DNA of 64,000 nucleotides from Chryseobacterium sp. Its GTDB lineage: Bacteria > Bacteroidota > Bacteroidia > Flavobacteriales > Weeksellaceae. Below are positions 15,275 through 16,320 of this stretch, in pieces. A program made the translations under genes and the position numbers. Under the pieces are notes generated by a model, which made no database searches, was not told the origin of the DNA, and was given only the letters and a program-made list of their open reading frames with translations. The stretch is from positions 19,813-83,812 of the forward strand of contig NZ_JARBTK010000005.1 of assembly GCF_029240215.1 (NCBI RefSeq). The letters run 5' to 3'. How positions within the stretch are numbered: the first letter of the stretch is position 1; each line of letters starts with the position of its first letter.

Positions 15275-15346
15275 AACCGATGCCGTAAGAAAAGAAATCC
15301 TTCGACTTCCAATTGAAAAATGAGTCTTTTCGCAAATTGCTCGGTT
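15275..15346 (+). ncRNA. Y-RNA-like unit A (minimal)
   Basis: AACCGA[T]GC-CGTA ... GC-TCGGTT; ATCCTTCG box. Confidence 0.6.
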
Positions 15347-15352
15347 TTAAAT

Positions 15353-15437
15353 AACCAATGTCGTTACCATAAGAGTTCCATCGATCAAACTTATAACTTG
15401 AACAACATTCAAAACTCTTATAACCTGTTACTTGGTT
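15353..15437 (+). ncRNA. Y-RNA-like unit B (minimal)
   Basis: AACCAA[T]GT-CGTT ... AC-TTGGTT; TTCCATCG box. Confidence 0.6.
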
Positions 15438-15458
15438 TTCATTTAAAATAATTTTAAC

Positions 15459-15494
15459 TGCGTAAAAAGAATGCGCACTAACGCAATAATTTTG
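15459..15494 (+). promoter_or_regulatory. Shared regulator box + -7 element (units C-H)
   Basis: TGCGTA-AAAAGAA-TGCGCA then TAATTTTG. Confidence 0.65.
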
Positions 15495-15528
15495 TAACAA
15501 CAAAAAGTAATAACCATAAAATTAAAAA

Positions 15529-15659
15529 AAGTAAGTGTCGTAAAATAGAGTTACTTCGTTAATGGGCAGTTATACAGGTTCGAGTCCTGTTCCCGAAATT
15601 CGGGATGGCGTAATTGGTAGTGTGCTGTACACGAGTTCTGTTTGATTTTTTACCTTACT
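15529..15659 (+). ncRNA. YrlA-like unit C (permuted tRNA domain)
   Basis: GTAAG[T]GT-CGTA...AC-CTTAC; T arm ACAGG-TTCGAGT-CCTGT, closed stem TCCCGA/TCGGGA, weak D arm. Confidence 0.7.
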
Positions 15660-15666
15660 TAAAAAC

Positions 15667-15737
15667 AATCGATGTCGTAAGAAAGAGTTCCTTCGAATCC
15701 AAATTGAAAAAAGTCTCTTTCAAATTTTTGCTCGATT
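15667..15737 (+). ncRNA. Y-RNA-like unit D (minimal, paralog of A)
   Basis: AATCGA[T]GT-CGTA...GC-TCGATT; TTCCTTCG box. Confidence 0.6.
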
Positions 15738-15771
15738 ATAAAAACTATAAACATTAAAACTATAAAATAAA

Positions 15772-15906
15772 AATCAAGTGTCGTCTTAGAATCATACTTC
15801 GATATCCAAACATTGGGTCGCAGGTTCGAATCCTGCCTTTCTTAAGGAAAGTAGCTCAGTTGGTAGAGCAAATGCACTGAAAGATTCTTAATTTTTTACC
15901 TTGATT
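15772..15906 (+). ncRNA. YrlA-like unit E (permuted tRNA domain)
   Basis: AATCAAG[T]GT-CGTC...AC-CTTGATT; GCAGG-TTCGAAT-CCTGC, CTTTC/GAAAG, TAGCTCAGTTGGTAGAGC. Confidence 0.8.
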
Positions 15907-15907
15907 A

Positions 15908-16023
15908 ATAAGAGTGTCGTAGAGAAAACTTACTTCGGTAAATCTTATGATATTGGTTCAACTCCAAAATAAGCCATGAAAGATGGCTTATATATTGGTT
16001 TTCTCGCCTTTTACCTCTTTTAT
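15908..16023 (+). ncRNA. Y-RNA-like unit F (T-arm-like hairpin + long hairpin)
   Basis: AAGAG[T]GT-CGTA...AC-CTCTT; TTGG-TTCAACT-CCAA; ATAAGCCAT/ATGGCTTAT. Confidence 0.6.
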
Positions 16024-16032
16024 AAAAATAAT

Positions 16033-16180
16033 AACAAGTGCCGTAGAATAGTGTTACTTCGCTATCAACGACGGGGTCGCGGGTTCGAGTCCCGCCTCTT
16101 CCACAACGAAACACAAATTTAGAAGGGAGAGTAGCTCAGCTGGTTAGAGCGCGACTGCGCTTTTTGATTGTTGCCTTGTT
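16033..16180 (+). ncRNA. YrlA-like unit G (permuted tRNA domain, 22-nt acceptor loop)
   Basis: AACAAG[T]GC-CGTA...GC-CTTGTT; GCGGG-TTCGAGT-CCCGC, CTCTTCC/GGGAGAG, TAGCTCAGCTGGTTAGAGC. Confidence 0.8.
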
Positions 16181-16189
16181 TTTTAATAT

Positions 16190-16320
16190 TAAAGTGTCGT
16201 AGAGAAAAGTTCCATCGTCACATTTTGGGGAGGAATAACGAGGCAGATAATTCCTACAAGGTTATCCGGTTCGACTCCGGCACAGACTTGCCCCGTTCTT
16301 TTCTCGATTGTTGCCTTTAT
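16190..16320 (+). ncRNA. Y-RNA-like unit H (T arm only)
   Basis: TAAAG[T]GT-CGTA...GC-CTTTA; CCGG-TTCGACT-CCGG. Confidence 0.6.

What the first reader, a model, noticed from the sequence alone, without database searches (positions are those of the whole stretch)
15275..16320. Array of eight Y-RNA-like genes with a constant Ro-binding module and variable effector domains
Seen: every unit has a 5-7-bp terminal stem, a bulged U on the 5' strand, two base pairs (G-C, Y-R), a 5' CGT(A) opposite a pyrimidine-rich strand, a second stem and a W(T/C/A)MCWTCG box. The terminal stems differ in sequence but stay paired (covariation within one genome). Cargo varies: full permuted tRNA (C, E, G), partial (F, H), minimal (A, B, D). 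Known: bacterial Ro60 loci usually have one or two Y RNAs (e.g. YrlA/YrlB) that tether Ro to partners. Inference: a modular adaptor library giving one Ro protein many specificities.
Basis: partly seen in the sequence, partly recalled or inferred. Interest (0 to 1): 0.9.

Follow-up and report, generated by a model that had tools for sequence, protein, structure and literature searches.

The report
Eight Y-RNA genes beside Ro60
Downstream of a Ro60-type gene in this Chryseobacterium genome lie eight small RNA genes that share one conserved docking stem and carry different, mostly tRNA-like, inner domains; such arrays were found beside Ro60 genes across the phylum Bacteroidota and I found no description of them.

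Summary
Window 15275-16319 (+) holds eight units. Each has a 6-7 bp terminal stem, a bulged U, two pairs (G-C, Y-R), a CGUA loop, a 7-bp second stem and a U-N-C-W-U-C-G box. The cargo is tRNA-like and YrlA-type in C, E and G, has a T arm only in F and H, and is minimal in A, B and D.

The units lie 290 nt downstream of a TROVE/Ro60 gene. They occur nowhere else in the genome. A model trained only on units from other families of the phylum still finds all eight (35-78 bits).

Arrays are the rule. 68 Chryseobacterium/Epilithonimonas loci have 3-12 units (median 8). 16 of 18 tested TROVE-positive Bacteroidota outside the family have 1-7 units beside TROVE. Nine of ten rsr-less congeners have none.

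Stems covary strongly (96% paired). Unit classes keep their order across species.

A promoter/operator word is shared by rsr, an internal array promoter, a tRNA-like RNA locus and an rtcB-rlaP operon.

Best reading: a co-transcribed Y RNA array within an RNA-repair regulon. Rsr binding, processing and the "many specificities" idea are untested. rsr is frameshifted in this assembly. Novelty: new variant of a known kind.

The parts
13374..13408 (+). Operator/promoter word (ACGCAAAAACAYTGCGCAATA, about 7 nt, then TTACTTTG as a Bacteroidetes-type -7 box), about 65 nt upstream of the rsr start codon
   Evidence: Regex hit. The 21-nt word has only 3 sites in the whole genome. It sits at the same place upstream of rsr in 44 of 68 related loci, never on the opposite strand. 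Promoter function is inferred.
13471..14987 (+). rsr: TROVE/Ro60-type gene, split here into two frames (13471-14559 and 14547-14987) by a missing A in an A-run at 14547-14550
   Evidence: Pfam TROVE 102 bits. Closest solved structure is Thermus phage phiLo Ro60, E 7e-25. Relatives have uninterrupted frames of mostly 506-545 aa against 381 here. Relatives and metatranscriptome contigs carry one more A.
15275..15346 (+). Unit A, minimal cargo (class AD, paralogue of D)
   Evidence: Fold; R1 56.4 bits; R2 41.7 bits; class assignment.
15353..15437 (+). Unit B, minimal cargo (class B)
   Evidence: R1 66 bits; R2 35.4 bits; class.
15460..15494 (+). Internal operator/promoter-like word in the B-C gap, ending in a perfect Bacteroidetes -7 box TAATTTTG (15487-15494); by my count it matches 16 of 21 positions of the rsr operator word, with the same spacing to the -7 box
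   Evidence: In relatives a copy lies in or before the array in 33 of 68 loci, mostly 72-81 nt before the next unit's UGYCGU. Function is inferred.
15529..15660 (+). Unit C, YrlA-type permuted tRNA-like cargo (T arm, acceptor-like stem-loop, D arm)
   Evidence: Rfam YrlA 26.3 bits; R1 109.6; R2 63.8.
15667..15737 (+). Unit D, minimal cargo (class AD)
   Evidence: R1 67 bits; R2 47.8.
15772..15906 (+). Unit E, YrlA-type permuted tRNA-like cargo; best Rfam YrlA match in the window
   Evidence: Rfam YrlA 50 bits against gathering score 69; R1 111.9; R2 58.2.
15910..16019 (+). Unit F, T-arm-like hairpin plus a 9-bp hairpin, no D arm; here the box closes a UUCG tetraloop hairpin
   Evidence: R1 103.6 bits; R2 67.3.
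16033..16180 (+). Unit G, permuted tRNA-like cargo with a 7-bp acceptor-like stem closed by a 22-nt loop
   Evidence: Rfam YrlA 36.1 bits and permuted tmRNA 25.1 bits, both below threshold; R1 101.6; R2 77.5.
16190..16319 (+). Unit H, hairpin then T arm enclosed by a GGGG/CCCC stem, in unpermuted tRNA order without a D arm
   Evidence: R1 71.2 bits; R2 61.5.
16325..16357 (+). Intrinsic-terminator-like hairpin (15 pairs) with a T run, directly after unit H
10452..10486 (+). Second exact copy of the operator/promoter word, upstream of a tRNA-like RNA locus (about 10650-10860) and the Band 7 gene. It belongs to the same putative regulon, not to the array
   Evidence: The locus has no Y module.

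Best explanation
This is an array of eight Y RNA genes of a Bacteroidota-specific type, encoded downstream of the Ro60 orthologue rsr. Steps 1 and 2 are inferred from sequence alone. Step 3 is the central unshown step. Step 4 is the weakest.

1. Transcription. The array is probably made as a few polycistronic precursors. C to H would start at the internal promoter/operator at 15460-15494 and end at the terminator at 16325-16357. A and B would be made by read-through from rsr or from a promoter I did not see. Variants of the same operator word precede rsr, a tRNA-like RNA locus and an rtcB-rlaP operon, so the array would be induced together with an RNA-repair regulon.

2. Processing. The precursor is cut in the 3-13-nt A/U-rich spacers. 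This releases RNAs of about 70-150 nt, each closed by its own terminal stem.

3. Docking. Each RNA binds Rsr through the shared module: the terminal stem, the bulged U, G-C and Y-R pairs, the loop word YGUA, and probably the UNCWUCG box.

4. Cargo. The inner domains differ by class. C, E and G carry a permuted tRNA like YrlA. F and H carry a T arm only. A, B and D carry short hairpins like YrlB or Yrn2. These domains either present different RNA shapes to different partners (tRNA enzymes, RtcB, exonucleases, PNPase) or gate Rsr.
For: Linkage:
- Units lie 290 nt to 1.3 kb downstream of TROVE on the same strand and nowhere else in the genome.
- 18 congeners have 5-13 units each downstream of rsr.
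- 68 loci have 3-12 units, median 8.
- Other Weeksellaceae genera have 1-7 units beside rsr.
- 16 of 18 TROVE-positive Bacteroidota outside the family have 1-7 units, all within about 2.5 kb downstream of TROVE.
- Of 10 rsr-less congeners, 9 have none and one has a single 33-bit hit. A genome with only a divergent TROVE paralogue has none.

Structure:
- 96.0% of cells are paired, against 43-58% when the partner is slid. There are 539 double-change cells in 134 congeneric units.
- In 58 units from other families the figures are 96.0% against 39-52%, with 330 double changes.

Likeness to known Y RNAs:
- YrlA-type cargo, at sub-threshold Rfam scores.
- The loop word GYCGUA against the published GNCGAA(N)G (PMC4201824).
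- The stem-bulge-stem with CGAA that is bound by phiLo Ro60, the closest solved homologue.

Non-redundancy:
- Unit classes keep their order AD-B-C-AD-E-F-G-H across species, and each class has its own conserved cargo blocks.

Co-transcription:
- Most spacers are too short to hold promoters.
- RNA-library contigs from four soil studies, 0-7 mismatches each, bridge the E|F, F|G and G|H boundaries.
- D. radiodurans Yrn2-tRNA-Yrn1 is a known polycistronic precedent.

Regulon:
- The 21-nt operator word has only three genomic sites: upstream of rsr, upstream of the tRNA-like locus, and (with 3 mismatches) upstream of rtcB-rlaP.
- A weaker copy precedes unit C and is conserved in relatives.
Against: - No experiment shows discrete RNAs, their ends or Rsr binding.
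- In the RNA contigs the depth over E-H is close to that of neighbouring genes in one run. DNA carry-over is therefore not excluded, and contigs cannot show strand or ends.
- rsr is frameshifted in this assembly. If that is real, the RNAs have no partner in this strain.
- All three tRNA-like units score below the Rfam YrlA gathering score.
- The loop word differs from the published motif at one position, a position where a single A-to-U change weakened phiLo Ro60 binding about 3-4-fold.
- The protein does not reach NCBI's Rsr equivalog cut-off: 24.9 against 900 bits for the 362-aa part up to the frameshift.
- The UNCWUCG box has no counterpart in described Ro-binding sites and could bind another protein.
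Confidence: 0.72

Rival explanations
1. The units are Y RNAs bound by Rsr, but the copies are largely redundant. The array would serve dosage (many gate RNAs made quickly in stress) rather than a library of different specificities, and cargo differences would be drift on a stable tRNA-like fold that protects against nucleases.
For: All units share one module. Copy number varies between species from 3 to 14, and E-F pairs are tandemly duplicated in some species. Chen et al. themselves raise nuclease protection by the tRNA fold as a possibility.
Against: Classes are old and keep their order and class-specific conserved cargo across a genus and beyond. A/B/D-type, T-arm-only and full tRNA-like types coexist in most arrays, including in other families. 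One class in other species carries 31 of 33 nt of 23S rRNA sequence, which drift would not be expected to produce.
Confidence: 0.2
2. The conserved module is not a Ro site. It would bind another protein of the RNA-repair regulon (RtcB, RlaP, the DEDDh exonucleases, Band 7) or act as a processing signal, and linkage to rsr would reflect only shared regulation.
For: The UNCWUCG box is as invariant as the YGUA word and is unknown from Ro sites. The loop word deviates from GNCGAA. The array shares an operator with rtcB-rlaP.
Against: Presence of units tracks the orthologous TROVE gene genome by genome and sits directly downstream of it across the phylum. I did not test whether it tracks rtcB. The stem, bulge, stem with a CG-containing loop word on the 5' strand is the known Ro-binding architecture.
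Confidence: 0.06
3. The region is decayed tRNA genes, a genomic repeat (REP/MITE-like) or a long structured 3' UTR of rsr, with no function as separate RNAs.
For: T-arm and D-arm words are tRNA-like. A 15-tRNA array lies 11 kb upstream. REP-like and Flavo-1-like repeats lie just upstream of unit A.
Against: ARAGORN finds no tRNA in the array and Rfam tRNA scores 16.9 against 29 bits. The arm order is permuted, and A, B and D have no tRNA parts. The units occur only at this locus. The copies differ in sequence and keep pairing through compensatory changes, and the family is conserved across a phylum. An internal promoter-like word is conserved.
Confidence: 0.02

Closest known systems
Salmonella Typhimurium YrlA and YrlB (rsr-yrlBA-rtcBA operon; Rfam RF02553 for YrlA)
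   Same: Encoded next to rsr on the same strand. A 5'/3' terminal stem with a CG-containing word on the 5' strand. C, E and G carry the same permuted tRNA-like domain (T arm, acceptor-like stem, D arm), preceded by a YUAY-like word (UUAC/AUAC inside the box). A, B and D resemble the short YrlB type. There is a link to RtcB, here through a shared operator rather than one operon.
   Different: Eight genes instead of two. All score below the Rfam threshold (50, 36.1 and 26.3 against 69 bits). The module has both strands conserved, a bulged U and two fixed pairs, and the word is GYCGUA rather than GNCGAA. There is an extra invariant UNCWUCG box. The promoter looks like a Bacteroidetes sigma-70-type with an operator, not RtcR/sigma-54.
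Deinococcus radiodurans Yrn1/Yrn2 and the small RNAs a, b and d upstream of rsr
   Same: Several small RNAs cluster beside rsr. A polycistronic precursor (Yrn2-tRNA-Asp-Yrn1) is processed to single RNAs. Both strands of the Ro-binding helix are recognisable, and some RNAs carry only a T arm, like F and H.
   Different: Two accepted Y RNAs plus three weaker binders there, upstream of rsr. Here 8 units (3-14 in relatives) lie downstream, all with one strict module.
Thermus phage phiLo Yrl1/Yrl2 with phiRo60 (PDB 9L5Y, 9KOP)
   Same: Its protein is the closest solved homologue of the window's TROVE protein (E 7e-25). The RNAs are stem-bulge-stem with a CGAA word in the bulge, and binding was measured.
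   Different: Two RNAs, upstream of the gene, with no tRNA-like cargo described. The word is CGAA, not YGUA.
Metazoan Y RNAs and nematode stem-bulge RNAs
   Same: Same layout: terminal stem, a single bulged pyrimidine on the 5' strand, two further pairs, an internal loop, a second stem and a variable distal domain. Small multigene families share one Ro site. This comparison rests on my own knowledge of hY1 and Xenopus Y3 and.
   Different: Separate Pol III genes, no tRNA-like domain, a bulged C and GGUCCGA rather than a bulged U and UGYCGUA. Homology as opposed to convergence was not tested.

Membership tests
Bacterial Y RNA (Ro60/Rsr-associated ncRNA, as defined by Chen et al. 2013/2014) | Encoded within about 4 kb of the Ro60 orthologue, on the same strand | tested here: met
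   The array starts 290 nt after the rsr stop on the same strand. The same holds in 18 congeners, other Weeksellaceae and 16 TROVE-positive Bacteroidota outside the family. Two exceptions have the array on the opposite strand upstream.
Bacterial Y RNA (Ro60/Rsr-associated ncRNA, as defined by Chen et al. 2013/2014) | Long stem formed by the 5' and 3' ends, carrying the Ro-binding word GNCGAA(N)G / CGAA on the 5' strand | tested here: inconclusive
   The terminal stem and second stem are present with strong covariation. The word is G-Y-C-G-U-A (Y-G-U-A across the phylum), matching 5 of 6 positions. Whether this variant binds Ro is unknown.
Bacterial Y RNA (Ro60/Rsr-associated ncRNA, as defined by Chen et al. 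2013/2014) | Physically bound by Rsr and dependent on it for accumulation | not testable with these tools
   Needs RIP/CLIP, gel shifts and an rsr deletion. Genome-by-genome co-occurrence is only indirect.
Bacterial Y RNA (Ro60/Rsr-associated ncRNA, as defined by Chen et al. 2013/2014) | A second, distal module distinct from the Ro-binding stem | tested here: met
   Class-specific cargo of about 25-100 nt between the box and the 3' strand of stem 2.
YrlA (Rfam RF02553) | Score at or above the curated gathering score (69 bits) | tested here: not met
   E 50.0, G 36.1 and C 26.3 bits. No hit for A, B, D, F or H.
YrlA (Rfam RF02553) | Permuted tRNA-like domain: T arm, then acceptor-like stem-loop, then D arm, with tRNA-like loop words | tested here: met
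   Met for C, E and G only, from the alignment to the model (GGUUCGAnUCC T arm; AGCUCAG..GGUAGAGC D arm in E and G). F and H have the T arm only.
tRNA genes (RF00005 / ARAGORN) | Cloverleaf in standard order that passes a tRNA detector | tested here: not met
   ARAGORN finds none between 15200 and 16400. Rfam tRNA scores 16.9 against 29 bits.
Ro60/Rsr protein (the presumed partner) | TROVE HEAT-repeat ring with a C-terminal vWA/MIDAS part, about 500-540 aa, intact | tested here: inconclusive
   Pfam TROVE 102 bits and a PDB phiRo60 match over residues 14-353. Relatives mostly have 506-545 aa. Here the frame breaks at 14547-14550, and the NCBIfam Rsr equivalog is not reached. The C-terminal part has no Pfam hit.

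The most novel reading that the evidence does not exclude
Bacteroidota Ro60 loci encode an ancient, expandable library of RNA mimics on one Ro-docking scaffold. The cargoes include permuted tRNAs, T-arm-only elbows, short hairpins and, in some Chryseobacterium species, a copy of the 23S rRNA helix-69 region. The library would be switched on with an RtcB RNA-repair regulon. Each mimic would bring Ro together with a different RNA-handling enzyme, or would act as a decoy or sensor for damage to a different class of cellular RNA. The array would then be a modular adaptor system and not a set of redundant Y RNAs.
Probability: 0.22. Interest if true: 0.9.

Novelty: new variant of a known kind. Interest (0 to 1): 0.74.

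Why it matters
Bacterial Y RNAs have been studied as one or two RNAs per Ro60 locus. What their distal domains bind, and why they mimic tRNA, is an open question stated by the discoverers.

Here a whole phylum shows the same Ro-type docking module reused 3-14 times per locus. The cargo classes are conserved and different, and they are tied to an RtcB-type repair regulon.

That supplies three things. First, a well-defined RNA family that current Rfam models do not detect. Second, a natural comparison between constant and variable parts, which makes the tether/adaptor hypothesis directly testable by per-class pull-downs. Third, culturable hosts (Chryseobacterium, and probably Bacteroides, where TROVE is present; I did not scan it for units).

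It also bears on studies of commensal Ro60 RNPs, since the RNA component in Bacteroidota may be far more diverse than assumed.

Tried and rejected
- Rfam at gathering thresholds finds nothing in the array, only true tRNAs elsewhere. The sub-threshold hits to permuted tmRNA, tmRNA and others are explained by the shared T-arm words.
- A sigma-70 consensus scan gave fewer promoter-like sites than shuffles (7 against 11.2). I did not use it. The terminator-like hits inside the array are T arms and cargo hairpins.
- TANNTTTG is not enriched in the window as a whole (87 against 92.9 expected). Only its conserved position carries weight.
- Metatranscriptome contigs did not cover units A-D in the four runs laid. 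I draw no conclusion from that. The very deep contigs over 15816-15869 are true tRNAs of other organisms that match 20-nt arm words.
- Rfam found no LSU rRNA match in the x12 unit at E<=0.01. BLAST against the species' own 23S did find one (31/33).
- The 23S word was not found in the window's own genome.
- Folding 10490-10905 gave z = -1.71, which is not convincing. An alignment of 12 relatives gave no clear consensus structure.
- Three Wolin-lab reviews (PMC10870794, PMC6047535, PMC6542706) and the supplementary tables of Chen et al. 2014 are not held. I therefore could not check whether multi-copy Bacteroidota loci are already listed there.
- Full-text searches for Y RNA or YrlA together with Bacteroides or Chryseobacterium found nothing relevant.
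- A check for other split genes in the window found only rsr and a transposase-like pair. Whether the rsr frameshift is real stays open.
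Full report
**1. What is there**

Between 15275 and 16319 on the + strand there are eight units. Every unit contains UG(U/C)CGU, and 10-20 nt further on a box ending in (U/A)UCG. Folded alone, each unit closes on itself through a 6-9-bp terminal stem. After the stem come one unpaired U, two pairs (G-C, then U-A, C-G or U-G), an asymmetric internal loop that starts CGU on the 5' side and is U-rich on the 3' side, and a second stem of about 7 bp.

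RNAalifold on an unedited MAFFT alignment of the eight returned exactly this structure. 12 of the 15 pairs show compensatory changes among the eight copies.

The inner domains differ:
- E, G and C align to the Rfam YrlA model through a T arm, an acceptor-like stem-loop and a D arm. They score 50.0, 36.1 and 26.3 bits, all below the gathering score of 69.
- F and H have a T arm but no D arm.
- A, B and D have only a short hairpin.

**2. Is it more than chance?**

A covariance model built from the eight units (R1) matches only those eight places in the 3.72-Mb genome. That test is circular for the window itself, so I added a non-circular one. I built a second model (R2) only from 58 units found beside TROVE genes in 13 genomes from other families of the phylum. 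R2 finds all eight window units at 35.4-77.5 bits, E 1e-8 to 7e-22. It finds nothing else in the 64-kb window at E<=1.

**3. Surroundings**

The gene ending 290 nt upstream (13471-14987, +) is a TROVE/Ro60-type protein: Pfam TROVE scores 102 bits. Its closest solved structure is the Ro60 of Thermus phage phiLo (E 7e-25). That protein binds two Y-RNA-like RNAs through a stem-bulge-stem with a CGAA word (PMC12135203).

In this assembly the gene is split by a 1-nt deletion in an A-run at 14547-14550. The window reads GCAAAATATG where a relative reads GCAAAAATGTG, and related RNA contigs carry the extra A. Relatives mostly have open frames of 506-545 aa. The genome's completeness estimate is 93.8%, against 99-100% for nearly all relatives. 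An assembly error is therefore plausible, but a real pseudogene is not excluded.

Upstream lies an RNA-repair-type gene set:
- an RNase H-like protein
- two ATP-grasp proteins, one of the R2K clade
- a cREC domain protein
- an Rnl2-family RNA ligase (218 bits, over the cut-off)
- a metallophosphoesterase
- two DEDDh exonucleases
- a Band 7 protein

cREC-ligase linkage, and TROVE as an RNA-repair platform with a tRNA-like partner, are discussed in PMC7824862.

**4. Related genomes**

Record titles of the closest loci name Chryseobacterium, family Weeksellaceae.

| Set searched | Result |
|---|---|
| 18 congeneric rsr loci (R1) | 134 units, 5-13 per locus, all on the rsr strand downstream |
| 68 full loci of different Chryseobacterium/Epilithonimonas species (regex calibrated on R1) | 3-12 units, median 8; 14 in one further locus; 594 hits on the rsr strand against 18 scattered on the other |
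| Other Weeksellaceae genera with the orthologous gene | 1-7 units beside it |
| 401 sampled Bacteroidota genomes | 21 carry TROVE, counting the window's own genome |
| 18 of those, from nine families other than Weeksellaceae | 16 have 1-7 R1 hits; every hit lies within about 2.5 kb downstream of TROVE on the same strand |
| 10 Chryseobacterium genomes without rsr | 9 have none, one has a single 33-bit hit |
| One genome with only a 35%-identical TROVE paralogue | none |

I tested it and the claim survived. Two loci have the array on the opposite strand upstream of rsr.

**5. Structure support from relatives**

On the 134 congeneric units, 96.0% of cells form standard pairs. When the 3' partner is slid by 1-3 columns the figure is 43-58%. 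14 of 15 pairs have double changes, in 539 cells. On the 58 units from other families the figures are 96.0% against 39-52%, with 330 double-change cells. Both alignments were fitted to the model, which favours the structure, but the contrast with the slid controls is large.

Invariant or nearly invariant letters are:
- the bulged U
- G, Y, C (Y across the phylum), G, U, A
- the box U-(A)-C-(U)-U-C-G after stem 2
- U-U-R-C before the terminal stem on the 3' side

The published bacterial Ro word is GNCGAA(N)G on the 5' strand (PMC4201824). The word here, G-Y-C-G-U-A, matches 5 of 6 positions. The UNCWUCG box contains the YUAY word that precedes the tRNA-like domain of YrlA. It is equally conserved in units without any tRNA-like part, and it pairs differently in different classes. 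That points to recognition as sequence. What recognises it is unknown.

**6. Classes**

Clustering the 142 units by sequence gives 13 classes. The window's order is AD-B-C-AD-E-F-G-H. The same order recurs, in whole or with a few classes missing, in most of the 18 congeners examined. G-H is nearly always last. Some species have extra classes (x3, x4, x7, x9, x10, x12) inserted, and some have E-F pairs duplicated in tandem.

Each class has its own conserved terminal-stem sequence and its own conserved cargo blocks. The 'covariation within one genome' is therefore old paralogue divergence. The retention of class order and cargo argues that the classes are not interchangeable.

One class absent from the window (x12, about 225 nt) carries 31 of 33 nt identical to the species' own 23S rRNA. 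From memory, that stretch is the helix 69-71 region.

**7. Expression and regulation**

Spacers between units are 3-13 nt, except B-C (91 nt) and D-E (34 nt). Most units therefore cannot have their own promoters. A 15-bp hairpin with a T run follows unit H.

A 21-nt word, ACGCAAAAACAYTGCGCAATA, followed by TTACTTTG, occurs at only three sites in the genome:
- about 65 nt before the rsr start codon (13374)
- before a tRNA-like RNA locus (10452)
- with three mismatches, before an rtcB-rlaP operon on another contig

A fourth, weaker copy sits in the B-C gap (15460-15494). By my count it matches 16 of 21 positions, and it has the same spacing to a perfect TAATTTTG box.

In relatives the word lies upstream of rsr in 44 of 68 loci and in or before the array in 33 of 68. 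It is usually 72-81 nt before the next unit, and never on the other strand.

Contigs from four soil metatranscriptome studies match 15770-16072, 15786-16007, 15793-16005, 15797-16051 and 15987-16295 with 0-7 mismatches. They bridge the E|F, F|G and G|H boundaries. This fits co-transcription. However, in one run the depth equals that of neighbouring genes, so DNA carry-over is not excluded.

**8. Interpretation**

The best-supported reading is a Y RNA gene array of a Bacteroidota-specific subtype that works with Rsr inside an RNA-repair regulon.

- *Shown by computation:* the family, its structure, its linkage and co-occurrence with TROVE, the conserved classes, and the shared operator word.
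- *Inferred:* transcription units, processing, Rsr binding, and any role of the cargo.

The 'adaptor library' idea is plausible and is now testable. The redundancy or gating alternative cannot be excluded.

**9. Novelty**

Published work describes at least two Y RNAs in each of three species, up to five small RNAs beside rsr in D. radiodurans, and 355 YrlA-like sequences in 276 genomes. I found no description of arrays of this size, of this module, or of Bacteroidota Y RNAs in the searchable library. I rate it a new variant of a known kind.

Noticed in passing
window 14547-14550 (inside rsr, 13471-14987 +): rsr is split into two frames by a run of four A where relatives and related RNA contigs have five. 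This is either an assembly error or a real pseudogene. Genome completeness is 93.8% against 99-100% in nearly all relatives.
   Followed up: partly
window 4463-10152 (+): An RNA-repair-type gene row upstream of the Ro locus: RNase H-like (4463-4948), ATP-grasp (5051-5656), R2K-clade ATP-grasp (5885-6661), cREC domain (6673-7044), Rnl2-family RNA ligase (7056-8069), metallophosphoesterase (8278-8841) and two DEDDh/KapD-like exonucleases (9031-9576, 9604-10152). The row is syntenic in relatives.
   Followed up: partly
window 10452-10486, 13374-13408, 15460-15494; L136:828-862 (G000 contig 14): A shared operator/promoter word that contains the palindrome TTGCGCAA. It precedes a tRNA-like RNA locus, rsr, unit C of the array, and an rtcB-rlaP operon on another contig. 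This suggests one regulon with an unidentified regulator.
   Followed up: partly
window about 10650-10860 (+): A tandem tRNA-like RNA between the exonuclease genes and the Band 7 gene. It has two T-arm/acceptor-like/D-arm modules (Rfam YrlA 23.2 and 32.9 bits) running into a tRNA-like element (Rfam tRNA 38.6 bits, poor acceptor stem, not called by ARAGORN). It has no Y module (R2 8.7 bits). It is conserved in relatives, but no consensus structure was obtained.
   Followed up: partly
L028:784-1008 (minus strand); also in L030, L032, L041: In some other Chryseobacterium species the array contains a unit of about 225 nt (class x12). Its cargo has 31 of 33 nt identical to the species' own 23S rRNA (from memory, the helix 69-71 region), making it a possible rRNA mimic on the Y scaffold. 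This class is absent from the window.
   Followed up: partly
L136:2405-3154 (G000 contig 14): The rlaP gene downstream of rtcB has an in-frame TAA after about 137 codons, and the reading frame continues beyond it. It is a second interrupted gene in the putative regulon of this assembly.
   Followed up: partly
window 2128-4316 (+): A dense array of 15 tRNA genes (His, Arg x2, Lys, Ser, Asp, Pro, Glu x2, Met, Asn, Cys, Leu, Phe, Gln) lies 11 kb upstream of the Ro locus, next to the RNA-repair genes. I did not examine whether it is the housekeeping set or an extra set.
   Followed up: no
window 15063-15155 (-) and 11013-11089 (+): Two sub-threshold matches to the Flavo-1 RNA motif (29.6 and 33.3 bits; gathering score 42). 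The first lies between rsr and unit A. It also matches RNA contigs from other genomic contexts, so it behaves as a dispersed repeat.
   Followed up: no
window 13225-13290 and 15177-15220: REP-like words. The first site is an inverted repeat upstream of rsr (an arm of about 21 nt beginning gtcattccgt, and its complement). The second is a related word before unit A. The second matches highly expressed contigs from elsewhere in soil metatranscriptomes.
   Followed up: no
window 16333-17113 (-): Two overlapping ORFs with helix-turn-helix domains (HTH_11/HTH_28, CENP-B_N) lie directly after the array's terminator. This may be a frameshifted transposase or regulator.
   Followed up: no
window 22096-24141 (+): A HAD hydrolase, ComF-like PRTase and TerD gene row, which looks like a tellurite-resistance-type stress cluster, 6 kb downstream.
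   Followed up: no
L132 (G013:C22:43069-43137, -): A single weak unit (33 bits) in a Chryseobacterium genome where no rsr was found. It may be a remnant of a lost locus.
   Followed up: no
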